A stretch of DNA of 64,000 bases from Myxococcales bacterium (GCA_016794505.1 JAEUJZ010000076.1:64001-128000), one strand, 5' to 3'. Counted from the first letter of the stretch, positions 27,452 through 54,234 are shown. A program made the numbers and translations. Notes: generated from the sequence alone by a model not told the origin.

Positions 27452-30796
<3,345 letters not shown>

Positions 30797-30894
30797 AACG
30801 CAACGGGTGTATCACCCTCGGCGGCTGCTCACAAGACTGAGAAGTGGGCCGCCCAGCCTGCGCTGCGATGAAGCGCGCCGGTCGCCCAGCGCAG

Positions 30895-31639
30895 CTACTT
30901 GCCTGCAGCTGGACGAGGACGGGCCGCAGGCAAAGCCAACAACACCACGCCGCCTATCAGCGCCGCCGAGCCGAGGACCACCGCCGCGGCGCCGCCCGGC
31001 TCGGTCTTATAGATCCGCTCACACGGAGGATCGGGGGTTGCGCACTGGCCATGCATGGACCACGCGACGCCGCCGCCGATGAGCAGGCCCGCCCCCGCTG
31101 TGACCAGGCCTCCACCGAGGGCCCAGCGCCAAAGCGGTCGACTCGCCTGGGGGGGCGAGGGCAGCGGCACCGGACTTACGACGAGCGGCGCCGGAGCAGG
31201 CTCTGGTTCGTCGCTGGCCGCGCGCTGCCGTGCGTCTTTTAAGTATCCTTCCAGGGTTTGCCGACTGGCTTCGGACAGCGTCGCGTCGGTAGCTAGGCAT
31301 TTTTCTAAATAAGGAATCGCCGCAGATCCTGGCAGCAGCTTGTACTGGGCGCGAGCCAGATTGCACACGATCGATGGGTCGGGATCCAAGCGATACGCCG
31401 CGCTCAGCTGCTCGACGGCAGGGCCGTACTGCTGTTTTTTGTACAGCTCGATGCCGCGGCTGTTCAGGCGGGCCGCTTCTTCGCGAAGGTCTTGCGCACT
31501 GGGCTCGGCCGCGTGCAGGCCCCCCGACGAAAAGAGCGCCGCCAAAAGCACGGAACGCGCCGCAGCGAACGGGCGCAAGCAGACGCTGGCGCCGCGGCCT
31601 GGTCCCCGCGTGTTCCCGTCGGCTCGCGCGCTGGGCGCA

Positions 31640-31659
<20 letters not shown>
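30895..31659 (-). CDS. TPR-repeat protein with C-terminal TM anchor
   Basis: TPR-like helices 'GIELYKKQQYGPAVEQLSAAYRLDPDP...NLARAQYKL'. TTG 31578 is an alternative start that would remove the 20-nt overlap with the upstream STK. Confidence 0.55.
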
Positions 31660-33532
<1,873 letters not shown>

Positions 33533-33582
33533 GCTGAGCGGCGCGCCGTTTCACGGATTGGCTGGTCCGGTCCGGTCCGGTC

Positions 33583-35286
33583 CTATACGCCCTGCAGACG
33601 ATCTCCCGAGCGAGCGGCGGCGCCTTGCGGATCGGTGGGGGCCAGCTCGTCGGCCGAGCGGGCCAGCTCAGCCAGCTCGTCGACCAAGGCCCGACTGCGC
33701 GCACTCGCCGAGACCAAGGGAGCCCGCCAGCGTCCGTGCTCGGGCGTCTTTTCCAGCGCCGTCAGTACCTCGGCCGCCGTCGCGAAGCGTCGATCGCGCT
33801 CTTTTTGCAAGCAGCGCTCGATGATGTCCACCAGCGCAGGCGATGGCGTCGGCAAGCGCGGATCGCGTCGGCTGCTCAGCGGCGGTGGCGGGTCGTGAAT
33901 CTGGCGATAGACATCCAGGTAAGCATCGCCCGAGGAAAACGGCGGCTCGCCGCACAGCATGAAATACGCGACTGTACCGAGAGCATATACATCGGCACGG
34001 CAATCTACGGACTGACCGCAGAGCGCTTCCGGTGCCATGTAGCGCGGCGTGCCCATGAACGCATCCGGCCGCGTCAGGTCCGGCCCCAGGTCGACGCCTT
34101 TGACCAGGCCAAAGTCCAGGACCTTCACGAAGTCGCCGGCTCCGCCCATGGTGGTGACGAACAGGTTTCCCGGCTTTACGTCGCGGTGGATCATGTCCAG
34201 CGAGTGCGCCTCAGCCAGCGAGCCGGCGATCTGTTCCAGCAGGTACACGGCGCGGTCGGGCGGCAGCAGGCCCTCTTTGCGGACGAGCTGGGCCAGGTCG
34301 CAGCCGTCGAGAAATTCCATCACGTAGTACGGCTGGCCGGCGGCGGTGCGGCCAAAGTCAAAGACAGCGATGGTGTTGGGGTGACGCAGGCGGCTGGCCG
34401 CTTCGGCTTCGCGTTCAAAGCGGGCGACGCTTACCGCGTCGGCGATGCCTTCCTTGAGGATCTTGACCGCGCAGGGTCGACGCAGCGACGCGTGGTAGGC
34501 CAAGTGGACTTCCCCCATGCCGCCTTGGCCCAAGCGACGAATCAGGCGATAGCGTCCCATCAAGCGCGCCGTCGCCAGGCCCAAGGTCAAGCGGTCGGCG
34601 GCGATGGCGCCAAGCAGCCCTGGCACCATCGCTCCGACGATGACGAGCAGCGTCAGCACGCCGTGAACACCAAAGAAGCCGGGACGCGGAAACGGCGACG
34701 GCCACAGGCAGGCCAGCGTCATAAACACGACCAGCATGAAGCCCGACACAGGGGCCACGCGCAGAAATGCCCCTGGCAAAAGGACGAAGCGAGCCAGCAT
34801 CAAGATGATCAGGCTGCCGTAGTGCGGGCTGGCCAGGCGCCCGGTGTGCGCGCACAAGACGCCGACGCCGACGGCCCCCAGCGCCGTCCACAGCACGTCG
34901 CGGACAATCTGCAGGCGCGCGTCCAGCTCGGCAATGTACGAGGTCGCAAGCAGCATCATGTACCCGGCGACCCACAGCGTGCGCAGGCCAAAGAACTGTC
35001 GCGGCCCGAACGTCACCGCCGCTGACCAGGGGTAATACACATCGATGACGAAGAACACGCAGGTCAGAAGCACGCCGAACACGCAGAGCTGACGGAAGCG
35101 CTGCGGAAACAGCGCCTGCGTGGTGCCCGGTGGCTCAAAGGCCGCCTCGGCGGCGCGGCGTCCTGGCTTTTCCGCTGCGCCGGCCCGTGCCACCTGCGCC
35201 GAGCGCTTGCCCTCGGGCTTGCGCGCCATGGCCCGGAGCGCTTCCTTTGACTCCCTTTCGGCCTGAGGCGGTCGCTCGCGGTCCAC
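33583..35286 (-). CDS. Ser/Thr protein kinase with N-terminal polytopic membrane domain
   Basis: About 6 TM helices, then 'LGQGGMGEVHLA...AVKIL...HRDVKPGNLFV...DFGLVKG...GTPRYMAPE'. Confidence 0.85.
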   Translation of the reverse strand: MDRERPPQAERESKEALRAMARKPEGKRSAQVARAGAAEKPGRRAAEAAFEPPGTTQALFPQRFRQLCVFGVLLTCVFFVIDVYYPWSAAVTFGPRQFFGLRTLWVAGYMMLLATSYIAELDARLQIVRDVLWTALGAVGVGVLCAHTGRLASPHYGSLIILMLARFVLLPGAFLRVAPVSGFMLVVFMTLACLWPSPFPRPGFFGVHGVLTLLVIVGAMVPGLLGAIAADRLTLGLATARLMGRYRLIRRLGQGGMGEVHLAYHASLRRPCAVKILKEGIADAVSVARFEREAEAASRLRHPNTIAVFDFGRTAAGQPYYVMEFLDGCDLAQLVRKEGLLPPDRAVYLLEQIAGSLAEAHSLDMIHRDVKPGNLFVTTMGGAGDFVKVLDFGLVKGVDLGPDLTRPDAFMGTPRYMAPEALCGQSVDCRADVYALGTVAYFMLCGEPPFSSGDAYLDVYRQIHDPPPPLSSRRDPRLPTPSPALVDIIERCLQKERDRRFATAAEVLTALEKTPEHGRWRAPLVSASARSRALVDELAELARSADELAPTDPQGAAARSGDRLQGV

Positions 35287-36751: not shown

Positions 36752-39700
36752 ATGGTGCCTGTGCCTTCGATCGTCACACTGTACGCCGCAGAAGATCGCG
36801 ATCGGTTCGCGGTCTATGATCGGCACCTGTCGTCGCTGAAGCTGGGCCGTGCGCTGCGCCATACCCACTCGGGGGATCTGCTGCCCGGCGAGCCGCTCGC
36901 GCGCCTGGATCAGCTGCTGCGCGACGCTGGCCCGGTGGTCTGTCTGCTCAGCGCCGACTTCCTTTCGAACCCGGATCTGATGGCGCAGGCCAAGGCCGCC
37001 GCCGACCGGCGAGGGCTGAGCAAGCGGCTGATTCCCGTGCGCCTGCGACCGGTCGATCTGTCCGACACCGTGTTCGCCGACCGGCAGGCCCTGCCGCGCG
37101 ATGGCACGCCGCTTTTCGACGGAGACCACATCCGCGAGGAGGCCCTGACGCAGGTGGTCGCCGGCCTGCGCGATCTGATGGAGGTGCTGCGCCGATCGCG
37201 CGGGATGGATCTCGATGGCGAGTACCGCTACCGCGAGACGCTGATCGATCGCGTCTACCGCGAGACGCTGCTCGATCGCGTCGAGGAAGCCTGTCGCAGG
37301 CGGGCCGAGCGCGACCACAAAGACGTGCGCCTGCGCCGCGTCCAGGCCCCGCCGCCCTTCGGCGAGCTGATCGAAGTCCGCTACCAAGACTCGTTCTGGT
37401 CGCGGCGCTATCTGGTCGCCGCGCTGTCGTCCACACCGACGGGCGATGACATCCAGACCCTTGGTGCTGAGCTGCGCAGCCGCTACCAGCAGCTAGACGC
37501 CATGGCCTATGCCGAGCTGATCTTTGTCGGGGCGCCGCTGTCCGAGGCGCTGCTGCAGCAGGCGCGCACCCTCACCATCGAAGCGCAGCACCTGGAGGAC
37601 TACCAAGGCCTTATCCACTTTGGTCGGTACATCCACGATCAGCAGCGCGCCCTGCAAAACGACGAGCGCTATCCGCCGGCCCTGTATGTCCCGCAGCGCA
37701 TGGTGTACAGCCGCGGCCTGGGCGGACGCGAAGAGACCGCCGAGCGCGACGCCCTGGACGAGATGTTTGCCTGGGTGCTGCAGCGCGACATGCAGCGCTT
37801 CATCTTGGTGCTCGGTGAGTTCGGCGTCGGCAAGACCTTCCTTTTGCATGAGCTGGCCCGGCGCCTTGGGGAACATCCCGGTGCGCCGACGCCGGTCCTG
37901 CTAGAAATGCGTAGCCTGGAAAAGGCCCGCAGCCTCGACGAGCTCATCGCGCAGCACCTGGCCAGCCGCGGCATCGAGCGCATCGACCTGTCTGGCTTTC
38001 GCTACATGCTGGCCGAGGGGCGCATCGCGCTGCTCTTCGACGGCTTCGACGAGCTAGCCCTGCGCGTCAGCTACGACCGCGCCGCCGAGCACCTGGACAC
38101 CATCACGCAAGCGGCGCAGGGACGGGCCAAGGTCGTCTTGACCAGCCGCACGCAGCACTTTCGCTCGGACGATCAGGTCAAGAACGCGCTCGCCCGACGG
38201 CTGGAAGCGCTGCCCGGCCACCGCGCGGTGCGGCTGTTGCCGTTCGACGACGGCCAGATTCGATCGTTTTTGGGCAATCGGCTCAAAGACCCGGCCCAGG
38301 CCGAGGCGCGATACACCCTGCTGCGCGACGTCAAAGACCTGCTGGGTCTGTCGGAAAACCCGCGCATGCTGAGCTTCATCGCCCAGCTTCCCGAGGCACG
38401 GCTGCGCCAGGCCCAGACCCGCGGCGAGATCACCGCCGCCAAGCTGTACGAAGAGCTTCTGACCTGGTGGATCGAAGAAGAGTGGAAGCGCGCCCATCCC
38501 AAGGGGCAAGAGCCGGGCCTGTCGACCGAGCAGCGCTGGGCCGCCGTTGAAAAGCTGGCGCAGCGACTGTGGCAGCAGACCGAGTCCTGGGTCACCGAAG
38601 CGCAGCTTGGCGACGTGGTCAGCGCGACGCTGCTGCAGCTAAAAGACGTCGGCGTGGCCGTCCATCAGGTCGGCGCCGGAACGCTGCTGTGTCGCGATGG
38701 CGAGGGGCGCTTTTCGTTCATTCACCAGTCGGTGATGGAGTGGCTGGTGGCCAAAGAAGCGGCGCGGCGGGTGGCAGCCGGCGGCTCGGCACTGTATGCG
38801 GCGCGCGAGATCTCGCCGCTGATGGCCGACTTTTTCACCGACCTGCTCGGGCACAAGGCCGCGTGTGCCTGGGCCCGCGATGTGGGCAAGAACCGCGAGG
38901 CCCGCGACATCGAAAAGAGCAACGCGCTGCTCATTCGCAGGCGCCTGGGGGACTCGCTTTCCGGCCAGGATCTGGCGGGCCAGGATCTGCGCGAGCACGC
39001 CCTGTGCGATGCCGATCTAGAGGGCGCCAACCTGCGCAAGGCCGACCTGCGCGACGTCGATCTGCGACGGGCACGCCTGGTCCGCGCCGACCTGCGCGAT
39101 GCCGACCTGCGCGGCGCGATCCTGCTTGGCGCCGATCTGCGCGGCGCCCAGCTAGAAGGCGCCCGCATGGCGCGGGCTGCCCTGGTCGGCGCGCACATGG
39201 ACGCTCCCGAGACCCTCGACCCAGCCGCCCTGTGGGGCGCCGCCCCGCCCCACCTGAGCGAAACCACCCCCCTGCAAATCATGGCCCACGGCACCTCGGG
39301 GCTGTCGTTGTCCGGCGGCGACCTGGCCTTCAGCCCCGACGGTGCGCTGCTGGCCGTGCCATGCGATGACGGCACGGTGCGGCTGTGCAACGTTGCCAGT
39401 GGCCGTGCGTGCCGCGTGCTGTCCGGGCACCACCGCTACGTTCAGGGCGTGAGCTTCAGCCCCGACGGACGCGTGCTGGCATCGGCGTCTCACGACGGCA
39501 CGGTTCGGCTGTGGGATGTCGCCAGCGGTCGTGAGCGCCGCGTGCTATCCGGGCACCAGGGCCGTGTGCTAAGCGTGGACTTCAGCCCCGACGGCCAGAC
39601 GCTGGCCTCGGGGGCACAAGATGGCACGATCCGGCTGTGGGACGCTGCCAGCGGTCGCGAGCAGCGCGTGCTGTCGGGGCACAAGGGCGCTGTGCTAAGC

Positions 39701-41455
39701 GTGGACTTCAGCCCCGATGGGCAGACGCTGGCCTCGGCGTCCTGGGACTACAGCGTGCGGCTGTGGGATGTTGCCGGGGGCTGCGAGCGGCACGCGCTGG
39801 CTGGGTACGACGACGAGGTGAATAGCCTGTGCTTCAGCTGGGATGGGCAGGTGCTGGCTTCGGCATCCGGCGATGGCACCGTACGTCTGTGGGAGGTCGC
39901 CAGCGGCCGCGAGATCCAGGCGGCATTGGGAAAATTAGGCGACGTACGTAGCGTGAGCTTCAGCCCGGATGGGCAGACGCTGGCCTCGGCCTCCGACGAT
40001 GGCACCGTACGCCTGTGGGATGTCGAAAGCGGCCGCGAGCGGCGCGTGCTGTCTGATCGCCCACGCAGCATATGGAGCGTGCGCTTCAGCCCGGATGGGC
40101 AGGTGCTGGCCGCATTATCCATCGACAATACGGTGAGTCTGTGGGACGTGGCCAGCGGCCACGAACGGCACACGCTGTTAGGAAGCCAAAGCCGTGTGTT
40201 GAGCGTGTGCTTTAGCCCGGATGGTCAAGCGCTGGCCTTGGGGTCTAGAGACAACACAGTGAGTCTGTGGGACGTGGCCAGCGGCCGCGAGACGCTCGTG
40301 CTAACGGAACACCCACACTCGGTGTCGTGCGTGAGCTTCAGCCCGGATGGGCAGACGCTGGCCTCGGGCTCCTGGGACCACATCGTGCGGCTATGGGACC
40401 GCGCCAGTGGCAGCCAGACACAGGTGCTGTCAGGACACCGAGCCAACGTGTTGAGCGTGCGCTTCAGCCCCGATGGGCAGACGCTGGCGTCAGGGTCCGG
40501 GGACCACACCGTGCGGCTGTGGGACATCGCCAGTGGCCGTGAGCGGGGCGTGTTGAAAGAGCATCAAGGCGACGTGAATAGCGTGAGCTTCAGACCGGAT
40601 GGGCAGGTGCTCGCCTCGGCGTCTGACGACGGCACGGCGCGGCTGTGGAACGTGGCCAGCGGTCGCGTGCGGCACGTGCTGTCGGGATCCTCTGGCCCCG
40701 TGTACAGCGTGAGCTTCAGCCCCGATGGGCAGACGCTGGCCTCGGGCTCCTCTGACGGCGCGGTGCGTCTGTGGGACGTGGACCGTGGCGATGGGGGGTG
40801 GCGCGTGCTGGTGCTGTCCGGGCACCAAGGCGCCGTGCGCTGCGTGAGCTTCAGCCCGGATGGCAAAGCGCTGGCCTCGGCGTCCGAGGACCACACCGTG
40901 CGGTTATGGGACATGGCCAGCGGTCGCGAGCGCCTCGTCCTGTCGGGGCACCAACGCGCCGTCACAAGCGTGAGCTTCCGCCCGGATGGACGGGTGCTGG
41001 CCTCGGGATCTGACGACAACACCGTGCGGCTGTGGGACGTCGAAAGCGGCCGGTGTCTGGGCATCCTGGTGCCCTGCGCCGAGGGCTGGGCCGCCCTGAC
41101 CCCAGACGGCCGCTATCGCATGGGCGGGACCATCGCGGGCGAGGTCTGGTACGCAGTCAACCTATGCCGCTTCGAACTCGGCGAGCTAGATCCGTATGTG
41201 GACCCCGACCTGCCCGCGCCGCTGCGCTTGCCCGACTCGTTCCGCTTCGTGGAACCGACCCCCACCACCCCGCCTGCCATCGAGCCGGCCGTTCCCGACG
41301 CCCCCGGCCGCGACACCACGCTGCCCCCCGCCACGGTCGCGCGCTTTTCTCGCTGGGTCGCTACCCCACTCGGCATCGCGCTTCTCTCATTGATCGCGGG
41401 GCTGCTCTACGTGTTGGCTCGGCTGCTCTACGTGTTGCTCGGGATGATCTTCTGA
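36752..41455 (+). CDS. STAND NTPase: N-terminal TIR-like domain, NACHT/AAA module, pentapeptide repeats, about 14 WD40 repeats and a C-terminal TM helix
   Basis: TIR-like segment: 'IVTLYAAEDRDRFAVYDRHLSSL...GDLLPGEPLARLDQLLRDAGPVVCLLSADFLSNPD'. Walker A 'GEFGVGKTF'; Walker B 'ALLFDGFDE'. Pentapeptide repeats 'ADLRDVDLRRARLVRADLRDADLRGAIL'. Repeated 'GH...V.SV.FSPDGQ.LAS.S.D.TVRLWD' units. Confidence 0.85.
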   Translation: MVPVPSIVTLYAAEDRDRFAVYDRHLSSLKLGRALRHTHSGDLLPGEPLARLDQLLRDAGPVVCLLSADFLSNPDLMAQAKAAADRRGLSKRLIPVRLRPVDLSDTVFADRQALPRDGTPLFDGDHIREEALTQVVAGLRDLMEVLRRSRGMDLDGEYRYRETLIDRVYRETLLDRVEEACRRRAERDHKDVRLRRVQAPPPFGELIEVRYQDSFWSRRYLVAALSSTPTGDDIQTLGAELRSRYQQLDAMAYAELIFVGAPLSEALLQQARTLTIEAQHLEDYQGLIHFGRYIHDQQRALQNDERYPPALYVPQRMVYSRGLGGREETAERDALDEMFAWVLQRDMQRFILVLGEFGVGKTFLLHELARRLGEHPGAPTPVLLEMRSLEKARSLDELIAQHLASRGIERIDLSGFRYMLAEGRIALLFDGFDELALRVSYDRAAEHLDTITQAAQGRAKVVLTSRTQHFRSDDQVKNALARRLEALPGHRAVRLLPFDDGQIRSFLGNRLKDPAQAEARYTLLRDVKDLLGLSENPRMLSFIAQLPEARLRQAQTRGEITAAKLYEELLTWWIEEEWKRAHPKGQEPGLSTEQRWAAVEKLAQRLWQQTESWVTEAQLGDVVSATLLQLKDVGVAVHQVGAGTLLCRDGEGRFSFIHQSVMEWLVAKEAARRVAAGGSALYAAREISPLMADFFTDLLGHKAACAWARDVGKNREARDIEKSNALLIRRRLGDSLSGQDLAGQDLREHALCDADLEGANLRKADLRDVDLRRARLVRADLRDADLRGAILLGADLRGAQLEGARMARAALVGAHMDAPETLDPAALWGAAPPHLSETTPLQIMAHGTSGLSLSGGDLAFSPDGALLAVPCDDGTVRLCNVASGRACRVLSGHHRYVQGVSFSPDGRVLASASHDGTVRLWDVASGRERRVLSGHQGRVLSVDFSPDGQTLASGAQDGTIRLWDAASGREQRVLSGHKGAVLSVDFSPDGQTLASASWDYSVRLWDVAGGCERHALAGYDDEVNSLCFSWDGQVLASASGDGTVRLWEVASGREIQAALGKLGDVRSVSFSPDGQTLASASDDGTVRLWDVESGRERRVLSDRPRSIWSVRFSPDGQVLAALSIDNTVSLWDVASGHERHTLLGSQSRVLSVCFSPDGQALALGSRDNTVSLWDVASGRETLVLTEHPHSVSCVSFSPDGQTLASGSWDHIVRLWDRASGSQTQVLSGHRANVLSVRFSPDGQTLASGSGDHTVRLWDIASGRERGVLKEHQGDVNSVSFRPDGQVLASASDDGTARLWNVASGRVRHVLSGSSGPVYSVSFSPDGQTLASGSSDGAVRLWDVDRGDGGWRVLVLSGHQGAVRCVSFSPDGKALASASEDHTVRLWDMASGRERLVLSGHQRAVTSVSFRPDGRVLASGSDDNTVRLWDVESGRCLGILVPCAEGWAALTPDGRYRMGGTIAGEVWYAVNLCRFELGELDPYVDPDLPAPLRLPDSFRFVEPTPTTPPAIEPAVPDAPGRDTTLPPATVARFSRWVATPLGIALLSLIAGLLYVLARLLYVLLGMIF

Positions 41456-42543
41456 TGCGGTATGGTGTCGTGATGGATCCCTCGCCCGTGCGCATCGTGG
41501 CCATCTGCGGCAGCTTGCAGGCGCGCTCGTCGAACCGCGCCTTGATCGAAGCGGCCGTGCGGGGGGCGCCAGACGGGGTCGTGGTCACGCCGTACGTGGG
41601 GCTTGCCGAGCTACCACACTTCAGCCCGGACCTGGACAGCGAGACGCCGCCGGCCGGCGTCGTCGCGCTGCGGCGACAGGTGGCCGCGCACGATGCCGTG
41701 TTCATCACCTGCCCGGAATATGGGCACAGCCTGCCCGGAGCCCTAAAGAACGCCATCGACTGGCTGATTCCGTCGGGAGAGCTGGAACAGAAGATCGTCG
41801 CCATCACCGCGGCGACCTCGGCCCCCGGTCGCGGGCGGCTGGGGCTGCGGGCGCTGCGCGACACGCTGTATGCCGTGCGCGCCGACATCGTGTGGGGCGA
41901 GCCGATCCTGCGCAGCGACCCGCACGAGGCGCAGGTCGCCGCGCTGCTGCAGGCGCTTTCAAAGCGCGTCCAGGCACAGCGCGACCCATCGTCTGTGCTG
42001 GCGTCGCGGCTGGCGTCGCAGTCGGCGTCACGGCCAGCGGCAGTCGATGTGCAGATTGGGCTGGCCTCGGCCGAGGATGCGGCGACCTACAGCGCGTTTC
42101 TGTTGCGCGGCATCGCCGACCACCCCGATGCGCTGCGCATCGCAGAAGCCGACGTGCGAACGGCGCCGTTTGCGACGGCAGCCACGGCCGATGCGGCGAC
42201 ATTCGTGGCGCGCGATGCGTCCGGCGCGTGGTGTGGCGTGGTCAGCGTCGAACGCGAGCGCGGGCGAGCCAAGCGCCAGCACATCGCCTGGATCGTCCGC
42301 ATGTACGTCGCAGCCCAGCACGCGGGGAACGGCATCGGGCGCCGCTTGCTGCAGGCTGCGATCGCCCATGCGCGCACGCTGCCCGGCGTCGAAAAAGTAA
42401 ACCTGACCGTCGCTGCGCACAACACCTCGGCGATTCAACTGTACGCATCGGAAGGCTTCCGCGAGTTCGCCCGCGAAACCGATGCCTTTCGCTCGCCGAC
42501 GCCACAGACCGAGCTTTCCCTGTCGCGTTTGCTGTCCTGGTGA
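41455..42543 (+). CDS. NADPH-dependent FMN reductase-like (flavodoxin-fold) domain fused to a GNAT N-acetyltransferase domain
   Basis: TGATG overlap with the NACHT gene. 'RIVAICGSLQARSSNRALIEAA...FITCPEYGHSLPGALKNAIDW'. The GNAT domain reads 'IAWIVRMYVAAQHAGNGIGRRLLQAAIAHA...VNLTVAAHNTSAIQLYASEGF'. Confidence 0.75.
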   Translation: MRYGVVMDPSPVRIVAICGSLQARSSNRALIEAAVRGAPDGVVVTPYVGLAELPHFSPDLDSETPPAGVVALRRQVAAHDAVFITCPEYGHSLPGALKNAIDWLIPSGELEQKIVAITAATSAPGRGRLGLRALRDTLYAVRADIVWGEPILRSDPHEAQVAALLQALSKRVQAQRDPSSVLASRLASQSASRPAAVDVQIGLASAEDAATYSAFLLRGIADHPDALRIAEADVRTAPFATAATADAATFVARDASGAWCGVVSVERERGRAKRQHIAWIVRMYVAAQHAGNGIGRRLLQAAIAHARTLPGVEKVNLTVAAHNTSAIQLYASEGFREFARETDAFRSPTPQTELSLSRLLSW

Positions 42544-42621: not shown

Positions 42622-43326
42622 TTACGGCGTCTCGCAGACGGGTGTCGACGGCGGGGTGAAGTGAAACAGGACGAACTGCGTCTCGCTCAGCGCAAACGGG
42701 TAATAGCCGCTGGCATAGCCGTGCAGCAGCGGCAGAAATGGGTTGCTGTCGACGGGCGAGCCCGGCTCGGCAAGCTGCCACTGAATGGCGTCCAAGGCAT
42801 CGCCTTGCGCATAGGACAAGTAGAACCGAGCGCTCTCTGCGACCGCGTCACCGAGTCGCTCGAGGTCCAGGGTAGGGCACAGGTATCCCCAGACAAACGA
42901 GCCATTGCACGGCATGATAAGTAGATGTCGATAGTCAAACTCGACTCCCTCGCGCAAGTACCGAGGAGCCGCGGCGCTGAGCGAGAACTGACAGCGCCTG
43001 TCGTGTGCCCCTAGCAGTGACTTGAGGGGCCCGAGCTTCCAGTCGAAGGCGCCGGGCTGGCGGACGCGGTGGCAGAGCGCGACGAACTCAGGCCAGCCGC
43101 CGTGGCGATGCTCGACATCAATGCGCGCGGCGAAGTGCTCGGGCGCGTGGCGATGCCCCAGATGCTGGTGGCCAAGCAGGTGGGCGTGTCCGATGGCGCT
43201 GGGCTGCGTCGGCGGCTCGAACCAGTCGATGTCTTGCCACAGGGACACGATGCGCAGGATCGCTGGCTCGGCGGCGCCGAAGTCATGGAGCGCAAGATCC
43301 ACGGTCAGCGGACCTTTCACGGACAC
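42622..43326 (-). CDS. hypothetical protein, His-rich ('GHAHLLGHQHLGHRH'); possibly a degenerate metallophosphoesterase-like protein
   Basis: 'VDLALHDFG' loosely resembles the GD motif region. Weak. Confidence 0.35.
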   Translation of the reverse strand: MSVKGPLTVDLALHDFGAAEPAILRIVSLWQDIDWFEPPTQPSAIGHAHLLGHQHLGHRHAPEHFAARIDVEHRHGGWPEFVALCHRVRQPGAFDWKLGPLKSLLGAHDRRCQFSLSAAAPRYLREGVEFDYRHLLIMPCNGSFVWGYLCPTLDLERLGDAVAESARFYLSYAQGDALDAIQWQLAEPGSPVDSNPFLPLLHGYASGYYPFALSETQFVLFHFTPPSTPVCETP

Positions 43327-43649
43327 AGCCTCCCCAGCCGACGCAGCGGCCGCTCGCGCAGCGCCTGCACAAGCTCGATGGCCTGCTCGCCCTGCACGAT
43401 GCCCACGCCCGAGATCAGCGAGCCGACGATGGGTCCGTGCTCGGTCTGCCCCAAATAAAAGATCCGCCCAGCGGGGATGCGCTCGGCCACGGCTTCGCTG
43501 AGCGCGTGCAGCGCCTGCGCAAAATCAGGGCGCCCACCGAGGAGCTTGCAGCGCGCGAGGCTCACGATCGCCTGATCGCGGCGCGACAGCGCAAAGCACC
43601 TGCGTATCTCGGCCGGCGGGACCTCGTCATGCGGCTGCGGCATGCCCAC
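43317..43649 (-). CDS. hypothetical protein; may be the N-terminal part of a frameshifted gene continued by 42622-43326
   Basis: 10-nt overlap in a different frame with the downstream ORF on the same strand. Confidence 0.3.
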   Translation of the reverse strand: MGMPQPHDEVPPAEIRRCFALSRRDQAIVSLARCKLLGGRPDFAQALHALSEAVAERIPAGRIFYLGQTEHGPIVGSLISGVGIVQGEQAIELVQALRERPLRRLGRLCP

Positions 43650-46503: not shown

Positions 46504-47025
46504 CTACGTGCGCAGGAACTTGGCGTGGCTGCCTGCCACTCGCGCCTCGTCCGCGGCTTGGCCGGGGTGATAGGTCGAGTACACGAACACCGGGATGCCC
46601 AGATCGCTCAGGTGCTGCTGGACAAGCGGCTGCACCTTGGCCCAGTCCATGCCACCCAAGCCCGTCGCCAAGCGCGGCAGAGCCAGGCTCGTGATCTTCT
46701 CTTTTGCGACGATGCCTCGCAGGTCGCGAAGGGCGTGGTTGACGTGCTCGATCTTGGCCCGGCCGGGGTGGGCTTTTTCGCTCGCAGCGGCTTCCTGCGT
46801 CAGCAGGCTGACGATGTATAGACCGTCGCTGCTCTTCCATGTCCAGGCTCCGCCGGACGCGGCGTGCTGCACGTGGCAGTAGTGGCGGAAGTCCTTGGCC
46901 ATGGCCGGCCAGCGCTCGCGCAGGGCCAACGCCAAGCCGCGATCCATGTGGTCGTTGGGCGCGACGCCGTGAGCGATGGCATGCGCCTTGGTCAGAAGAA
47001 TGTCGCCGGTCACTTCAAACAGCAT
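46504..47025 (-). CDS. macro domain (ADP-ribose binding / O-acetyl-ADP-ribose deacetylase-like) protein
   Basis: 'MLFEVTGDILLTKAHAIAHGVAPNDHMDRGLALALRERWP'. GGAGGA RBS. Confidence 0.7.
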   Translation of the reverse strand: MLFEVTGDILLTKAHAIAHGVAPNDHMDRGLALALRERWPAMAKDFRHYCHVQHAASGGAWTWKSSDGLYIVSLLTQEAAASEKAHPGRAKIEHVNHALRDLRGIVAKEKITSLALPRLATGLGGMDWAKVQPLVQQHLSDLGIPVFVYSTYHPGQAADEARVAGSHAKFLRT

Positions 47026-48425: not shown

Positions 48426-49487
48426 ATGGATGCGTGGGTGCGCAAGCGCTTGTTCGAGTTTCTCAAGGCGGACTCTGACTTTGAGGCGTTCTGTCAGGAC
48501 CACTTCCCCGAGACCGCGCAGCGCTTCGGAGCCGCGATGGATCGCCAGGCGCGCATCAGCCTGCTCTTGCAGCGCGAAGGCGCAAAGCCCGTTCTGCAGA
48601 AGCTGCGCGACGAGTTTCCCGGCCTGATCCCCGCCGGACCGCCGTCGAGCGACCCCGATGTGCGCGCCGAGGTCTCGCTGCGCCAGCGCGCGTTTGGGCA
48701 CGGCGATCCCTATCTGCACTGCGATCGCGGCAAGCAGTTCGCGTACATGCGCGGCGCGATGGCGCGACCCGATCATCAGGTCGTGCTCTTGCCGGGCAGC
48801 CAGGGCGAGGCGCACGAGTTTTTCTTGGCCCGCCTGGAAGTCGCGCTGCCGGGTGAGATCCCGCGCAAGGTGCTGCGCGTGCCGTGGCGCAAGGCGCGTC
48901 CGCCCTCGCCGAGCTTTCCCGTCGACCGCCGCGACTTCGAGGCCGCGCTCTTGCTGGCGCTGGGTCATCCGCCGTCGAGCGAGACCCCGCTTGCGAGCGC
49001 GCTGTCGCGCACCCTGCAGCACCATGTGTTGGTCCTTTTGCATCCCGTCGTGCGGCGTGGGTACGAGCACGCGGCGCTCGTGCAGTACTACACCGACTGG
49101 CTGCCGACGCTGCTTTCATCGCTGCGCACCGAATACCCGTGCAAGCTGGTGCAGCCGATCGAGTGGCAGCCCGCGCCCCCAAAGTCCTCGCCGGACGCCA
49201 CGCCAAGCGCTGTCCCGACGAGCAGCGAAGCCGCCGCCCGCGATCTGATCCGCCGCTTGATGAGCCAGCGCAAGGCGAAGCTGATCATCGAGGCCACCAA
49301 CGATCTGGCGCCGATCACGCGGCCCGATATCGACGATTTTTTGACCGTGGTCGGCTACGCCAGCAGCCTGCCGCCCGACGAGTGCAACGCTGCCCGCGAA
49401 GCCTTCCTGACCGCCGTTTTCAGCGAGGGCGCCAGCTCAGAACAGATCCTGCGCAAGATCCACGAGGAACTTCCCGACGACCTGTGA
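48426..49487 (+). CDS. hypothetical protein with N-terminal alpha-helical effector-associated-domain (EAD)-like module
   Basis: 'MDAWVRKRLFEFLKADSDFEAFCQDHFPETAQRF' is a short helical bundle of the kind found at the N-termini of NTPase-coupled conflict-system proteins. No recognisable enzymatic motif. Confidence 0.5.
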   Translation: MDAWVRKRLFEFLKADSDFEAFCQDHFPETAQRFGAAMDRQARISLLLQREGAKPVLQKLRDEFPGLIPAGPPSSDPDVRAEVSLRQRAFGHGDPYLHCDRGKQFAYMRGAMARPDHQVVLLPGSQGEAHEFFLARLEVALPGEIPRKVLRVPWRKARPPSPSFPVDRRDFEAALLLALGHPPSSETPLASALSRTLQHHVLVLLHPVVRRGYEHAALVQYYTDWLPTLLSSLRTEYPCKLVQPIEWQPAPPKSSPDATPSAVPTSSEAAARDLIRRLMSQRKAKLIIEATNDLAPITRPDIDDFLTVVGYASSLPPDECNAAREAFLTAVFSEGASSEQILRKIHEELPDDL

Positions 49488-49543
49488 CTTCTGCGCCAAG
49501 GCCCAGGCTCAGGCCGAGGCCAGCGCCGACGAAGGACTTCGCC

Positions 49544-50587
49544 ATGCCCAGCACGCCATCGACTTCTCATGCGCCGCACAGCCTGTCCGCCTCGACGGGA
49601 TCCACCCGCACGCAGGCCGCCGACCGGCTTTACCTTTTGTACGAAGGCCAGGGCAGAGCCGCGGGCAGCGCCGCCGTCACACGGGGCGAGCGTGGCGCGT
49701 ATCTCGCCGATGTACGCCTGCGCGATGCCGTACGCACCGCGGTCGCCCTCGAAAAGCCGCTGCTCGTCACGGGCGAGCCGGGCTGCGGCAAGACGGCGCT
49801 GGCCTGGTCCGTCGCATCCGAGCTCGGCTTGGGCGAGCCGCTGACCTTTCACACCCGCAGCGACCATCACGCCGTCGATGTGCTGTACAGCTTCGATCAC
49901 ATCCTGCGCTTCTTCGACGCGCAGACGCAGGAGGAGCGGGCCAAGAGTCCCGAAAACTACATCAAGCTCGAAGCGCTCGGCCGCGCCATCGTCGAGTCCG
50001 ACCCCAGCCCGCGTGGCGCCGAGTGGCGGGCTCGCTTGGCGCAAGACGACGGCATCGCCGAGGTGCCGCTGGGCCGTCGCGTCGTCCTTATCGACGAGAT
50101 CGACAAGGCGCCGCGCGACTTTCCCAACGACCTGCTCGACGAGTTCGACCGCATGCAGTTTCGCGTCAAGGAAAAGCCCGGCCTGCGCTTTACCGCGTCG
50201 CTGCGGCCGATCGTGATCATCACCAGCAACAGCGAACGCCAGCTTCCCGATCCGTTTTTGCGTCGCTGCGTCTATCACGGCATCGACTTTCCCGATCCGC
50301 CGACGCTGGAAAAGATCCTGCGGCAGCGCATCGCGCCCGATCTGCCCGACCAGCTTGTGCAGGCCGCTCTCGATCGCTTCCGTGAGCTGCGTCAGCGCGG
50401 CGAAGAAAAGCTGCTGGAAAAGAAGCCCGCGACCGCTGAGCTCGAAGCCTGGGTGCGCATGCTGCTTCTGGCTCGCGTTCCCGTCGAGAAAATCGCCGAA
50501 AGTCCGCTCGCCGAGCTGCCCAACGTCAGCGTGCTGATCAAGACCGAAAAGGATCTGACATGGATCCGCAAGCAGACCACGCGCTAG
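49544..50587 (+). CDS. MoxR-family AAA+ ATPase
   Basis: AAGGA RBS. Walker A 'GEPGCGKT'; Walker B 'VVLIDEIDKAPRD'; sensor-1 'IVIITSNS'; 'PDPFLRRC' arginine-finger region. Confidence 0.85.
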   Translation: MPSTPSTSHAPHSLSASTGSTRTQAADRLYLLYEGQGRAAGSAAVTRGERGAYLADVRLRDAVRTAVALEKPLLVTGEPGCGKTALAWSVASELGLGEPLTFHTRSDHHAVDVLYSFDHILRFFDAQTQEERAKSPENYIKLEALGRAIVESDPSPRGAEWRARLAQDDGIAEVPLGRRVVLIDEIDKAPRDFPNDLLDEFDRMQFRVKEKPGLRFTASLRPIVIITSNSERQLPDPFLRRCVYHGIDFPDPPTLEKILRQRIAPDLPDQLVQAALDRFRELRQRGEEKLLEKKPATAELEAWVRMLLLARVPVEKIAESPLAELPNVSVLIKTEKDLTWIRKQTTR

Positions 50588-53500: not shown

Positions 53501-54234
53501 ACGACGACGAAAAACCACCGCACCCGATGACCGTCGCGGCCTTCCAGCTCGATGACATCGAAGTGACCGCCGGGGCGTATGCCGAGTGCGTCGCGAGCGG
53601 CGCCTGCGTGGCTGCCGAGACCGTCGGAAGCTGCAATGCCGGGAAGCCCGATCGGGTGAGCCACCCGATCAACTGCGTGAACTACGCGCAGGCCGAGTCG
53701 TACTGCAGCTGGCGGGGCGGTCGCTTGCCGACGGAAGAAGAGTGGGAATACGCCGCGCGGGGCCGCGACGGACGCGAGTATCCATGGGGCGCAGCACAGC
53801 CCTCACCCCAGCTATTGAACGCTTGCGGCAGCGAGTGTCGATATGCCAACAAGATGTTCAAAGGCAACGACGGCTGGCCCGAGACGGCTCCCGTGGGCAG
53901 CTATCCCGAGGGCCAGAGCCCATTCGGGGCGCTGGACCTGGCCGGCAACGTCGGGGAGTGGGTAGATGGCTGGCACTGTAGCCGCGGTTATGAGCCGGGA
54001 ATCCCGACCAGAGCGAGTGAACATAAATCGCGCTGTCGGGCTAATTTTCGCATGATTCGCGGGGGCTCCTGGGACAGCTTCGCCCCGACGGGCGTGCGTG
54101 CCGCCTATCGCTCTGGATTCTCACCGAACTACCGCGGCTACTTCGTCGGTTTCCGTTGCGCCAGGACCAGTGCCGAACGGATCGGGCCACCCGATTTTTT
54201 TTATAGTACTAGGGCTCGCGAAGCGAACCCTTGA
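50560..54234 (+). CDS. large membrane protein: N-terminal helical domain, 2 TM helices, vWA domain (degenerate MIDAS), third TM, Ig-like/CarboxypepD_reg-like domain, C-terminal FGE-sulfatase (SUMF1-type) domain
   Basis: 28-nt overlap with the MoxR gene; AAGGA RBS. vWA: 'LLILCDVCSDM...ALLVLSTGRD'. FGE: 'WLTIPGGTFTMGS...HPMTVAAFQLDDIEVT...YCSWRGGRLPTEEEWEYAARG...RGGSWDS'. Confidence 0.75.
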   Translation: MDPQADHALDDPSAAMDPARDPASPLSAFLAVLRTRGVPIGIAQHIEAARLLSLLRPTCDVQSLARSLGALLGRDGKEARLVENLFLNEFAEAFHFADYGPELPAVRQAALRKLVERAEHTTPADDARRRRRAALRWIVPSAVVFVAVLAGLAVFLRRPAPSPPPTPSPQTQAPPTAPIPWTELLEPEATPPDLRSEPVVSDPRWLLLILLSLVGTLPFSALWLARSYGPRRRQARKEHARAFWSKAREQLDGPVTPQLRLPPVPPPLDRGDLDDMATLLGRSDERQPTRQIDGEGTARATIALGNTPKLVWRERKLARRLLILCDVCSDMRPWQHKTAALIDGLRRRGVPLSVRYFDGSADLLRADEDSAYEPLSLTLLQNAGAALLVLSTGRDARDPHRPGQLARWIREASERVPLRVWLNPLSPRRLWRPELRKARFPMRVLPMTPKGLTAAAYELALGSERRLHIPDARVQPAREASESDVQRLEELIALYPDAPLDVVEWLWRRFLPDVPDDVLALTLDEEDVRWNSVQWSDERLAAALNRLRMRDAGKEPPERIEEQARRELFRLLDDSAQTMVRDSVGQLRLRLLAALQQIYLHGPGDQEAALATLRSLLRGPIYSEVAEAIFLIGGPADMPQAGILPIALPTIDALRSEFPQLVQSGVEYVAEVSSDATLPKGGKPASVPWPRPMLRDIAPALGLPALALLGQWWLGGWGRPVLPEPAYRLTVQATDSEHVRLVVQATRSGLPTSGRLCQDATCRRSTERTWDAASGFVQSRTAERQEIHLRARLRGGKLLYSNAVAIPKRVPPAPPIEEPSMPPVEEPPEKPPEPVVAAAMQGSLRLRFIDAQDGRAVVGVRYSVIDAKGQKQSGQGVLQKSLPIGAAKITAQAAGYAPRTVTVTIKAGLEQEVQYPLTTQQAKPDPLPLIAASPPDMATPAPPPDLSSPVDQASPAPAVAFRLARWLTIPGGTFTMGSERHDDEKPPHPMTVAAFQLDDIEVTAGAYAECVASGACVAAETVGSCNAGKPDRVSHPINCVNYAQAESYCSWRGGRLPTEEEWEYAARGRDGREYPWGAAQPSPQLLNACGSECRYANKMFKGNDGWPETAPVGSYPEGQSPFGALDLAGNVGEWVDGWHCSRGYEPGIPTRASEHKSRCRANFRMIRGGSWDSFAPTGVRAAYRSGFSPNYRGYFVGFRCARTSAERIGPPDFFYSTRAREANP

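What the first reader, a model, noticed from the sequence alone, without database searches (positions are those of the whole stretch)
36752..42543. TIR-NACHT-pentapeptide-WD40 STAND protein with C-terminal TM helix, translationally coupled to an FMN-reductase-GNAT fusion
The 1567-aa protein stacks four modules: a TIR-like N-terminal domain, a NACHT P-loop NTPase (Walker A GVGKTF, Walker B DGFDE), a pentapeptide-repeat stretch and about 14 WD40 blades. It ends in a hydrophobic anchor. Bacterial NACHT/STAND proteins with TIR effectors are implicated in anti-phage defence. The downstream gene overlaps it by 1 nt (TGATG) and fuses a flavodoxin-fold NAD(P)H-FMN-reductase-like domain to a GNAT acetyltransferase. 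If the TIR is an NADase, a co-expressed NAD(P)H-binding/acetyltransferase partner could modulate or detoxify its products, or act as an immunity/antitoxin partner. That pairing is not a described one. Pentapeptide repeats placed between the NACHT and WD40 modules are also uncommon.
Basis: partly seen in the sequence, partly recalled or inferred. Interest (0 to 1): 0.75.

Follow-up and report, generated by a model that had tools for sequence, protein, structure and literature searches.

The report
Bacterial NLR-like sensor, unrelated neighbour gene
The big gene is a real but ordinary member of a widespread family of bacterial NLR-like (NACHT) immune-type sensors. Its TIR domain has lost the residue needed to destroy NAD+, and the flavin-reductase/acetyltransferase gene next to it is a chance neighbour, not a conserved partner.

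Summary
In detail: 36752-41455(+) encodes a 1567-aa STAND protein, followed closely by an FMN-reductase-GNAT fusion.

The interpretation mostly fails.
- The iREase-NACHT-pentapeptide-WD40 core is the norm in hundreds of homologues from Sorangium, other Myxococcota, Actinomycetota and Acidobacteriota. Their N-terminal effectors are swappable.
- The N-terminal domain is a genuine TIR fold. However, the catalytic Glu column (AbTir E208) holds Gln79, the W204 equivalent is Asp75, and residues 49-128 contain no Glu. An NADase is therefore unlikely.
- The pairing is not conserved in either direction. Five independent contexts of fusion homologues lack a NACHT gene. Eighty genomic NACHT-family loci lack the fusion.
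- Homologues support a fusion start at ATG 41473, 17 nt after the stop, not the TGATG overlap.

Unusual points remain. The C-terminal membrane anchor is absent from 75 genomic homologues and from 120 database homologues (about 33 with an intact C-terminus), and is shared only with one fragment. Strain-level differences concentrate in the WD40 blades.

Verdict: a new member of a known kind, of low to moderate interest.

The parts
36752..41455 (+). Gene for the 1567-aa NACHT-clade STAND (bacterial NLR-like) protein, stop codon included
   Evidence: ORF and translation. GC3 is 0.81-0.92 in frame along the whole length. There are 295 homologues of residues 1-760 at E<=1e-3, and 497 confirmed genomic relatives.
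36752..37216 (+). N-terminal TIR-fold domain (residues 1-155) lacking the catalytic glutamate. Gln79 is codon CAG at 36986-36988; Asp75 sits at the AbTir W204 position.
   Evidence: TIR_2 scores 24.6 bits, below the cut-off. There are 3861 homologues at E<=1e-3. The family profile hits PDB TIR domains: Cat1 at 1.9e-11 and AbTir at 5e-7. The AF2 model has pLDDT 90.3 and its top Foldseek hits are nearly all TIR domains.
37228..37282 (+). In-frame 27-nt tandem duplication (YRETLIDRV / YRETLLDRV) at the TIR/iREase junction
   Evidence: TRF: period 27, 2.0 copies, 96% match. Homologues have one copy of the motif.
37262..37615 (+). NACHT-associated inactive restriction-endonuclease-fold domain (residues 171-288)
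   Evidence: Pfam PF22739 NA-iREase3, 71.4 bits, E=1.3e-19. It is present in most homologues.
37796..38272 (+). NACHT P-loop NTPase core (residues 349-507), with Walker A at 37823-37837 and Walker B at 38039-38053
   Evidence: Pfam NACHT 40.1 bits. G358, G360, K361, T362, D430-E434 and R466 are invariant in a 22-sequence alignment. Codons checked.
38273..38956 (+). Conserved helical / winged-helix region after the NTPase core (residues 508-735), including near-invariant H658
   Evidence: Conserved columns in alignment A1. The assignment as the NACHT C-terminal helical/WH part is inferred from family knowledge.
38957..39196 (+). Pentapeptide-repeat stretch (residues 736-815, about 16 units)
   Evidence: Pfam Pentapeptide 64.8 bits. 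TRF finds a 15-nt period at 38987-39148. Sequence checked.
39290..41062 (+). 14 WD40 blades (residues 847-1437), enough for two seven-bladed propellers; the presumed sensor
   Evidence: Pfam WD40 E=5e-155. TRF finds a 126-nt period with 13.3 copies. Repeat register. Strain differences concentrate here.
41063..41248 (+). Family-wide conserved C-terminal cap (residues 1438-1499; GWAALTPDGRY...CRFELGELDPY...)
   Evidence: The same motif ends nearly all of 75 complete genomic homologues.
41249..41353 (+). Proline-rich linker (residues 1500-1534), specific to this lineage
   Evidence: Absent from 75 genomic homologues. GC3 is 0.92 in frame. Also present in L010 and P0326.
41354..41452 (+). C-terminal hydrophobic helix / tail anchor (residues 1535-1567), containing a 21-nt in-frame tandem duplication at 41400-41442
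   Evidence: KD maximum 2.23. TRF finds a 21-nt period. None of 75 genomic homologues and none of 120 database homologues has such a tail. Fragment P0327 has an analogous tail with KD 1.86.
41473..42543 (+). FMN-reductase (ChrR/YieF class) - GNAT fusion gene. The alternative upstream in-frame ATG at 41455 gives the TGATG overlap.
   Evidence: Pfam. About 25 full-length homologues. Homologue N-termini and a conserved leader support 41473. The profile hits chromate reductase at 1.5e-24. AF2 pLDDT is 85.6, and Foldseek gives ChrR at TMt 0.81 plus GNATs.
41491..41883 (+). NAD(P)H-dependent FMN reductase domain, with the GSxxxxSxNR and PEYGHS motifs intact
   Evidence: PF03358 92.5 bits. Invariant S13, S18, N20, R21 and P80-S85 in A3.
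42136..42480 (+). GNAT acetyltransferase domain, with the acetyl-CoA loop Q-x-x-G-x-G-x-G-R intact
   Evidence: PF00583 56 bits. Invariant G284, G286, G288 and R289 in A3.

Best explanation
The locus holds two functionally unlinked genes that happen to be adjacent in this lineage.

Gene 1 is a member of the large iREase-NACHT-pentapeptide-WD40 family of bacterial NLR-like STAND proteins. These are typical of Myxococcota, Actinomycetota and other bacteria with complex lifestyles. The most likely mechanism is as follows. The pentapeptide beta-helix and the two WD40 propellers act as a ligand sensor. Ligand binding releases the NACHT NTPase switch, whose Walker A, Walker B and sensor Arg are intact. 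NTP-dependent oligomerisation then brings the N-terminal modules together.

In this protein the N-terminal module is a TIR fold without the catalytic glutamate (Gln79). The output is therefore probably not NAD+ cleavage. It is more likely a non-enzymatic, scaffold or adaptor-type TIR function, or a weakened output. The protein is additionally tethered to the membrane by a lineage-specific Pro-rich linker and C-terminal helix.

Gene 2 is a ChrR/YieF-type NAD(P)H:flavin/quinone reductase fused to a GNAT acetyltransferase. It belongs to a small family found in varied, non-defence contexts. It is probably read through from gene 1, but it carries its own conserved initiation region.

Shown: domain identities, absence of the catalytic Glu, non-conservation of the pairing, rarity of the TM tail, and concentration of strain variation in the WD40 blades. 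Inferred: the sensing, oligomerisation and output steps, membrane insertion, and any immune role.
For: Domain calls. The family is widespread, with effector swapping at the N-terminus (PNP_UDP_1, Metallophos, TIR_2, Trypsin_2) on a constant iREase-NACHT-Pp-WD40 core. NTPase motifs are invariant. The TIR fold is established. The catalytic column holds Gln79, Gln in P0064 and Ser in L057, against Glu in 104 of 149 family domains and in AbTir and Cat1. AbTir E208A is inactive. No NACHT gene lies near fusion homologues, and no fusion gene lies near 80 NACHT loci or near the TM-tailed relative. The start at 41473 and the conserved leader are. The TM tail has a coding-like composition and is conserved as a feature in P0327. 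Between window and L010, WD40 differences fall at the positions that also vary between blades, and dS is 10-20 times higher than in the flanks. The published framework already lists this tripartite architecture, inactive REase, Pp and beta-propeller sensors, and 'hybrid' C-terminal tethers.
Against: No experiment supports any step. The neighbourhood is not a recognisable defence island: it holds three Ser/Thr kinases, ArgRS, Usp and a K+ channel, and GC content is uniform. A TIR without the Glu could still have an unknown activity. The two genes are only 17 nt apart with no promoter-like or terminator-like site between them, so co-expression is likely and a lineage-specific functional link cannot be excluded. 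The closest full-length homologue is only about 48-51% identical, so conservation was tested at a distance. The WD40 strain variation could be partly a metagenome assembly artefact, because L010 begins inside the repeat array.
Confidence: 0.62

Rival explanations
1. The TIR is an NADase effector, and the translationally coupled FMN-reductase-GNAT protein modulates, detoxifies or neutralises its products, so the two form a two-gene defence cassette.
For: The genes are co-directional, 17 nt apart (or overlapping if ATG 41455 is used), with no terminator or promoter consensus between them. The fusion binds NAD(P)H-type cofactors by family. The same arrangement is present in a second strain (L010).
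Against: The catalytic Glu and the W204 equivalent are absent from the TIR. The pairing is absent from 5 contexts of fusion homologues, from 80 NACHT-family loci and from the TM-tailed relative. Homologue starts and the conserved leader argue against the overlap. PADLOC gives no meaningful hit for the fusion.
Confidence: 0.04
2. The membrane anchor is the effector. Ligand-triggered NACHT oligomerisation clusters many C-terminal helices, or brings the complex onto the membrane, and this disturbs membrane integrity. The dead TIR serves only as an assembly interface.
For: A TM tail with coding-like composition occurs in three strain variants and, with a different sequence, in P0327. The TIR lacks the catalytic Glu. 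TM regions are a listed category in bacterial NACHT proteins.
Against: A single C-terminal helix at the far end of the sensor, opposite the N-terminal position where effectors sit in this family, is an odd place for an effector. Kibby et al. read small C-terminal add-ons as tethers and TM regions as sensors. There are no data on topology or toxicity.
Confidence: 0.12
3. The gene is a decaying or functionally retired paralogue. The effector has lost its catalytic residues and in-frame duplications are accumulating, so the protein no longer signals.
For: Gln79 and Asp75 occupy catalytic positions. Two recent in-frame tandem duplications are present. The closest TIR-bearing relative, P0064, is a truncated ORF. 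Sorangium genomes carry several paralogues of the family each.
Against: The 4.7-kb ORF is uninterrupted and has a strong codon-position signal throughout. All NTPase motifs are intact. The Glu-less state is shared by diverged relatives: P0064 at 50% identity, L057, and P0188 and P0191. WD40 variation is patterned on predicted surface positions, with the scaffold positions constrained at dN/dS 0.39.
Confidence: 0.12
4. The protein has a non-immune signalling role. It would be a membrane-associated STAND scaffold in myxobacterial developmental or social signalling, consistent with the adjacent cluster of eukaryotic-like kinases.
For: Three Ser/Thr kinase genes lie immediately upstream on the opposite strand. 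There is no defence island, mobile-element signature or GC anomaly. An adaptor-type TIR would fit a scaffold.
Against: Kinase genes appear here only as neighbours, and adjacency alone says little. No neighbour is conserved with the family. Effector swapping and sensor diversification are hallmarks of conflict systems.
Confidence: 0.1

Closest known systems
[quoted passage not shown]
   Same: Tripartite layout: N-terminal effector, NACHT, C-terminal repeats. The inactive REase module, pentapeptide and beta-propeller sensors, TIR as one of several interchangeable N-terminal domains, and enrichment in Myxococcota and Actinomycetota all match.
   Different: The TIR lacks the catalytic Glu. A Pro-rich linker and a single C-terminal helix follow the conserved cap, and this tail was seen in none of 75 genomic and 120 database homologues examined. 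No member this close has been tested experimentally. NCBIfam antiphage NACHT models (EruA, HyoA) match only weakly, at 55 and 23 bits against cut-offs of 1000 and above.
Catalytic TIR NADases (AbTir, Cat1, SARM1, plant TNL TIRs, ThsB)
   Same: The same fold. Foldseek probability is 1.00 to RPS4, BtpA, AbTir, SPARTA and MyD88, and the profile matches Cat1 at 1.9e-11 and AbTir at 5e-7.
   Different: AbTir E208 corresponds to Gln79 and W204 to Asp75, and the whole alpha-C region has no Glu. E208A abolishes AbTir activity. In this respect the domain resembles adaptor-type TIRs such as MyD88 and the TLRs. That comparison rests on my own knowledge, not on a test made here.
Fungal HNWD/HET-type NACHT-WD40 NLRs with highly similar, rapidly diversifying WD40 repeats (from my own knowledge; fungal NLRs are mentioned)
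   Same: A NACHT domain is followed by many near-identical WD40 units. Variation is focused on a few positions per blade, both between blades and between strains.
   Different: This protein is bacterial and has a pentapeptide spacer, an iREase module and a membrane tail. Repeat units are about 70% identical at the DNA level. Only two strains were compared, and one is a metagenome contig.
Class I chromate/quinone reductases ChrR/YieF and YhdA-type azoreductases (FMN_red, PF03358) and generic GNAT N-acetyltransferases
   Same: The N-terminal half of gene 2 matches Gh-ChrR (E=1.5e-24; TMt 0.81, 32% identity). The C-terminal half matches GNATs such as 2I79, PaiA and SpeG. Cofactor motifs are intact.
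   Different: The two domains are fused in one 356-aa chain, in a small family of about 25 clusters at 90% identity among 5.8 billion proteins. No NCBIfam equivalog reaches its cut-off. The substrate is unknown.

Membership tests
NACHT-clade STAND NTPase (bacterial NLR-related protein) | Walker A GxxxxGK[ST] | tested here: met
   GEFGVGKTF. G358, G360, K361 and T362 are invariant in 22 homologues.
NACHT-clade STAND NTPase (bacterial NLR-related protein) | Walker B hhhhDGhDE with two acidic residues | tested here: met
   LLFDGFDE. D430-E434 are invariant.
NACHT-clade STAND NTPase (bacterial NLR-related protein) | Match to the curated NACHT profile above its cut-off | tested here: met
   PF05729 scores 40.1 bits against 26.7.
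NACHT-clade STAND NTPase (bacterial NLR-related protein) | Tripartite architecture: N-terminal effector/adaptor, NACHT, C-terminal repeat sensor | tested here: met
   TIR + iREase, then NACHT, then pentapeptide + 14 WD40.
NACHT-clade STAND NTPase (bacterial NLR-related protein) | NTP-dependent oligomerisation, and protection against phage | not testable with these tools
   This needs biochemistry and phage challenge.
iREase-NACHT-pentapeptide-WD40 subfamily (Sorangium / Actinomadura type) | NA-iREase domain immediately before the NACHT domain | tested here: met
   PF22739 scores 71.4 bits. It is present in most homologues.
iREase-NACHT-pentapeptide-WD40 subfamily (Sorangium / Actinomadura type) | Pentapeptide stretch followed by WD40 blades and the conserved cap ...GW.A..PDGRYK..G...G.FW...G.CRFEPGELDPY | tested here: met
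   The cap is present at residues 1438-1499.
Catalytic TIR NADase | TIR fold | tested here: met
   The AF2 model has pLDDT 90.3, and 22 of the 27 best Foldseek matches are TIR domains. The family profile hits PDB TIRs. Pfam TIR_2 alone is below its cut-off, at 24.6 against 28.
Catalytic TIR NADase | Catalytic glutamate in helix alpha-C (AbTir E208, SARM1 E642) | tested here: not met
   The column holds Gln79 in three independent alignments. Residues 49-128 contain no Glu.
Catalytic TIR NADase | Aromatic residue four positions before the Glu (AbTir W204), contacting the substrate | tested here: not met
   Asp75 occupies that column. The role of W204 is described.
Catalytic TIR NADase | NAD+ cleavage activity | not testable with these tools
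   This needs an enzyme assay.
Two-gene defence cassette (STAND + FMN_red-GNAT partner) | Adjacency conserved among homologues of either gene | tested here: not met
   None of 5 fusion contexts, none of 80 NACHT-family loci, and neither L091 nor L092 shows the pairing.
Two-gene defence cassette (STAND + FMN_red-GNAT partner) | Overlapping stop/start (translational coupling) | tested here: inconclusive
   TGATG exists, but homologues and a conserved leader support ATG 41473, 17 nt downstream. Neither start has a strong SD sequence.
Two-gene defence cassette (STAND + FMN_red-GNAT partner) | Location in a defence island | tested here: not met
   The neighbours are kinases, ArgRS, Usp and a K+ channel. 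Only a DarG-like macrodomain lies 5 kb away. There is no GC anomaly.
NAD(P)H-dependent FMN reductase (ChrR/YieF class) | Profile match above the cut-off, the flavodoxin-like fold, and the GSxRxxSxN and PEYN/H motifs | tested here: met
   PF03358 scores 92.5 bits against 24. ChrR matches at E=1.5e-24 with TMt 0.81. The motifs are invariant.
GNAT acetyltransferase | Profile match above the cut-off and the acetyl-CoA loop Q/RxxGxG/A | tested here: met
   PF00583 scores 56 bits against 20.7. G284, G286, G288 and R289 are invariant. Foldseek finds GNATs.

The most novel reading that the evidence does not exclude
A small myxobacterial sub-lineage of NLR-like proteins may have swapped the usual enzymatic output for something else. 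In that reading, a catalytically dead TIR acts as an adaptor or assembly surface, and a newly acquired tail anchor places or fires the complex at the membrane. In this lineage the gene would also have become co-transcribed with a flavin-reductase/acetyltransferase that takes part in the response. The result would be a membrane-tethered bacterial NLR with a non-NADase TIR and a lineage-specific metabolic partner.
Probability: 0.08. Interest if true: 0.55.

Novelty: new member of a known kind. Interest (0 to 1): 0.22.

Why it matters
It matters little as a discovery. The protein fits a family and a framework already described for bacterial NACHT/NLR-like proteins, and the proposed new pairing does not hold.

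Three points could be worth a specialist's attention:
- a TIR module inside a bacterial NLR that has lost its catalytic residues, as animal adaptor TIRs have;
- a rare tail anchor added after the family's normal C-terminus;
- strain-to-strain variation focused on the same few WD40 positions that vary between blades, echoing fungal NLR sensors.

If confirmed with long-read genomes, the last point would add a bacterial example of repeat-based sensor diversification.

Tried and rejected
- A single-sequence phmmer search of the N-terminal 160 aa against PDB found no TIR, only chance hits to troponin and Tse8. The TIR link needed a family profile.
- Synteny between the neighbours of fusion homologues and window ORFs was tested with three BLASTP comparisons, and nothing matched.
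- tblastn of the upstream 440-aa ORF, the two downstream ORFs, the macrodomain and Usp against 80 NACHT-family loci found no conserved neighbour.
- An HMM search for other TIR or NACHT genes in the window found none.
- The promoter/terminator scan found no promoter-like site (0.4 expected by chance) and no more terminator-like sites than chance, none of them between the two genes.
- tRNA and Rfam scans found only tRNA-Ala at 4.6 kb, so there is no sign of an integration site.
- The afdb50 fold library was unavailable.
- PADLOC kinase hits (PD-T4-6, mad6) for the three upstream genes were set aside as generic kinase-domain similarity.
- I considered that the TM tail might be read-through into non-coding DNA. 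I rejected this because GC3 stays at 0.81-0.92 in frame, and the feature recurs with a different sequence in P0327.
- I considered that the upstream 'RYGVV' residues might be coding, because RY[GR]V is conserved. I rejected this because L001 and L007 have no in-frame start and L008 has a stop there.

Full report
**1. What is in the sequence**

The window is high in G+C (62-69%) with no compositional break around the locus. ORF 36752-41455(+) encodes 1567 aa. In frame, GC at the third codon position is 0.81-0.92 from the first to the last segment, so the whole length looks coding.

Pfam scans of the whole protein and of its parts give the following:
- a weak TIR_2 match (residues 40-111, 24.6 bits, below the cut-off of 28);
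- NACHT (residues 349-507, 40 bits);
- Pentapeptide (residues about 736-815, 65 bits);
- WD40 (E=5e-155).

The blades are 42 aa long and there are exactly 14 of them, at residues 847-1437. After the last blade come three elements:
- a 62-aa cap (GWAALTPDGRY...CRFELGELDPY...);
- a 35-aa proline-rich linker;
- a 33-aa hydrophobic end, with a Kyte-Doolittle maximum of 2.23.

Walker A (GEFGVGKTF), Walker B (LLFDGFDE) and a sensor Arg (R466) are present. All are invariant in a 22-sequence alignment of homologues.

The downstream ORF carries FMN_red (92.5 bits) and GNAT (56 bits).

**2. The STAND protein belongs to a large, already described family**

A search with residues 1-760 returned 295 proteins at E<=1e-3; the best was 48% identical over 78% of the query, and up to 55-56% over shorter stretches. 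Most of them combine PF22739, NACHT, Pentapeptide and WD40. Their N-termini differ: nucleoside phosphorylase (PF01048), metallophosphoesterase (PF00149), TIR_2 (PF13676) or trypsin-like peptidase (PF13365).

A scan of one genome per species confirmed 497 relatives. The best 80 come from Sorangium (several paralogues per genome), other Myxococcota, Actinomadura, Spirillospora, Nonomuraea, Acidobacteriota and Planctomycetota. About 30 of those 80 carry an N-terminal TIR. The consensus of the 22-sequence alignment shows the pentapeptide stretch directly after the NACHT region.

Pentapeptide repeats between NACHT and WD40 are therefore the family norm. TIR-NACHT-Pp-WD40 is a common architecture.

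The published survey of bacterial NACHT proteins lists exactly these elements:
- TIR, PNPase and calcineurin-like N-terminal effectors;
- catalytically inactive REase;
- pentapeptide and beta-propeller sensors;
- 'hybrids', which have repeats plus a small C-terminal add-on thought to tether the protein;
- TM regions.

**3. The TIR domain is real but lacks the catalytic residues**

Residues 1-165 have 3861 homologues at E<=1e-3 among 1.84 billion representative proteins. A profile built from 31 of these domains hits solved TIR domains: Cat1 at 1.9e-11, Hydra TRR-2, TLR15, AbTir at 5e-7, PdTIR, MyD88 and plant TIRs. An AlphaFold2 model with mean pLDDT 90.3 gives Foldseek matches that are almost all TIR domains. 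They include RPS4, TRAM, BtpA, MyD88, SPARTA, RUN1 and AbTir, at probability 1.00.

The profile column that aligns with the catalytic Glu of AbTir (WTNY-E-LDG) and of Cat1 (CWD-E-LEQ) carries Glu in 104 of 149 family domains. In the window protein it carries Gln79. This holds in two MAFFT alignments and in an hmmalign run that included the AbTir and Cat1 fragments. The AbTir W204 equivalent is Asp75.

There is no Glu anywhere between residues 49 and 128, so no change of register can supply one. The closest TIR-bearing relative, P0064, also has Gln. A Polyangiaceae homologue (L057) has Ser. The nearest stand-alone relatives, P0188 and P0191, also lack the Glu. In AbTir, E208A is inactive, while E208D and W204A are impaired. 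An NAD+-cleaving role is therefore unlikely. That removes the premise of the proposed partner function.

**4. The pairing with the FMN-reductase-GNAT gene is not conserved**

The fusion has about 25 full-length homologues at 56-72% identity. Five independent contexts were read (L001/L002, L003/L004, L005/L006, L007, L008/L009). They contain two-component regulators, a sigma-54 activator, a Gly-rich protein, PSD/cytochrome genes and an FAD oxidoreductase on the opposite strand. None contains a NACHT or WD40 gene. Only L010, a metagenome contig of the same locus, repeats the arrangement.

In the other direction, none of the 80 genomic NACHT-family loci has a tblastn match to the fusion within 8 kb. 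An HMM of the fusion family finds only two weak GNAT hits there, both on the opposite strand and kilobases away. No other neighbour of the window gene is conserved either.

The closest fusion homologues (P0002-P0005) start at MD(S/A)xxV, which corresponds to ATG 41473. The 13-15 nt just before that ATG (cggtatggtgtcg) recur in L001, L003, L007 and L008. There they cannot be coding, because there is no in-frame start, and L008 has a stop. The gene thus carries its own initiation region, and the TGATG overlap is probably incidental. The real gap is 17 nt. No promoter-like or terminator-like site lies between the genes, so read-through transcription is still likely.

**5. What the fusion is**

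Its profile matches class I chromate/quinone reductases: Gh-ChrR at 1.5e-24, PA1204 and YieF. It also matches YhdA-type azoreductases and, in the C-terminal half, generic GNATs. The AF2 model (pLDDT 85.6) superposes on ChrR with TMt 0.81, and on GNATs such as 2I79 and PaiA. Cofactor motifs are invariant in the family. No NCBIfam equivalog comes near its cut-off, and PADLOC gives nothing meaningful. It is best described as a soluble NAD(P)H:flavin/quinone reductase fused to an N-acetyltransferase of unknown substrate.

**6. What is unusual**

(a) The tail. Nearly all of the 75 complete genomic homologues end within a few residues of the conserved cap, and none has a hydrophobic end (maximum KD 1.12). 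None of 120 database homologues has one either. A search with the last 130 aa found only two relevant sequences. One is another strain's fragment with the same tail (P0326). The other is a C-terminal fragment, P0327. It is 72% identical in the cap, and its linker differs in sequence but again ends in a hydrophobic helix with KD 1.86. The tail therefore looks like a genuine, rare, lineage-specific addition. It most simply reads as a membrane tether. Downstream of P0327 there is no fusion gene.

(b) The sensor. L010 and the window are about 99.7% identical over 3.4 kb of flanking sequence. Yet about 130 of about 140 differences fall within 39779-40979, inside the WD40 array. At the protein level, 74 of 75 differences lie in or between the blades. 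They cluster at repeat positions 5-9, 25-26 and 39-41, the same positions that vary most between the 14 blades. In the array, dS is 0.14 against 0.007-0.019 in the flanks. dN/dS is 1.1 at the variable positions and 0.39 at scaffold positions. This pattern fits repeat exchange plus diversifying selection on a binding surface. Because L010 starts inside the array, an assembly artefact is not excluded.

(c) Two in-frame tandem duplications: 27 nt at the TIR/iREase junction and 21 nt inside the hydrophobic helix.

**7. Surroundings**

Upstream, on the other strand, lie three Ser/Thr kinase genes and an ORF with no family. Downstream lie two small ORFs with no family, ArgRS, Usp, a 169-aa DarG-like macrodomain and a K+ channel. 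Beyond those is a three-gene cluster ending in a 1209-aa vWA...FGE-sulfatase protein. There is no integrase, and no tRNA closer than 32 kb. This is not a recognisable defence island, although the macrodomain and the vWA/FGS cluster are of types seen in conflict systems.

**8. Verdict**

The locus is a new member of the known bacterial NLR-like NACHT family. It has a non-catalytic TIR and a rare membrane tail, and it sits next to an evolutionarily unlinked flavoreductase-acetyltransferase gene.

The most likely mechanism is ligand sensing by the repeats, an NTP-driven NACHT assembly, and a non-NADase output at the membrane. Everything after the domain assignments is inference. Interest is low to moderate.

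Noticed in passing
window 39779-40979 versus L010:2-1200: Two near-identical strains differ at about 0.3% in the flanks and about 11% in the WD40 blades. Amino-acid changes sit at repeat positions 5-9, 25-26 and 39-41, the same positions that vary between blades. dS is also 10-20 times higher there, which suggests repeat exchange rather than point mutation alone. A metagenome assembly artefact is not excluded.
   Followed up: partly
window 37228-37282 and 41400-41442: There are two recent in-frame tandem duplications inside the STAND gene. A 27-nt one (YRETLIDRV/YRETLLDRV) lies at the start of the iREase domain. A 21-nt one (LLYVLAR/LLYVLLG) lengthens the C-terminal hydrophobic helix and puts an Arg inside it. 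The second is present in all three strain variants seen.
   Followed up: partly
window 41458-41472; L001:7983-8000, L003:7983-8000, L007:1075-1092, L008:662-679: A motif of about 15 nt (cgGTATgGTGTcg) directly upstream of the fusion gene's ATG is conserved in homologues from unrelated genomic contexts, where it cannot be coding. It may be a gene-specific translation or transcription initiation signal.
   Followed up: partly
window 46504-47013 (-): A stand-alone 169-aa macrodomain protein resembles the N-terminal half of the antitoxin DarG (PADLOC 3.7e-25; NCBIfam 78.6 bits against a cut-off of 250). No DarT-like gene lies beside it; its neighbours are a Usp gene and a K+ channel gene.
   Followed up: partly
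window 48426-54234 (+): A three-gene cluster encodes a 353-aa protein with no family, a 367-aa AAA-type ATPase (weak MadB-like match) and a 1209-aa protein with a CoxE-like vWA domain and a C-terminal FGE-sulfatase domain. It is reminiscent of the ATPase-vWA ternary conflict systems with FGS domains described by Kaur et al. 2020. Membership was not tested.
   Followed up: partly
window 27452-35286 (-): Three consecutive Ser/Thr protein kinase genes (1114, 630 and 567 aa; two carry TPR repeats) lie just upstream of the STAND gene on the opposite strand. Their PADLOC hits (PD-T4-6, mad6) look like generic kinase-domain similarity.
   Followed up: no
window 42622-43649 (-) and 35378-~36650 (-): Two overlapping small ORFs (234 and 110 aa) downstream of ArgRS, and a roughly 420-aa ORF divergent from the STAND gene, have strong coding composition. 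None matches anything in Pfam, NCBIfam or PADLOC. The two small ORFs are 100% identical in L010.
   Followed up: no
L093:280-3057 (P0064): The closest relative with the same Glu-less TIR is a 554-aa ORF that stops inside the NACHT-associated region and is followed by two short same-strand ORFs. It is either a pseudogene or a frameshift error in a low-coverage contig (3.2x).
   Followed up: no
L091:1209-1900: Downstream of the TM-tailed relative P0327 a stretch of about 70 nt occurs twice. In one frame it reads GHPGHAL(R/L)LP(V/I)PDLIGGSAPPDS. It looks like a small intergenic repeat element.
   Followed up: no
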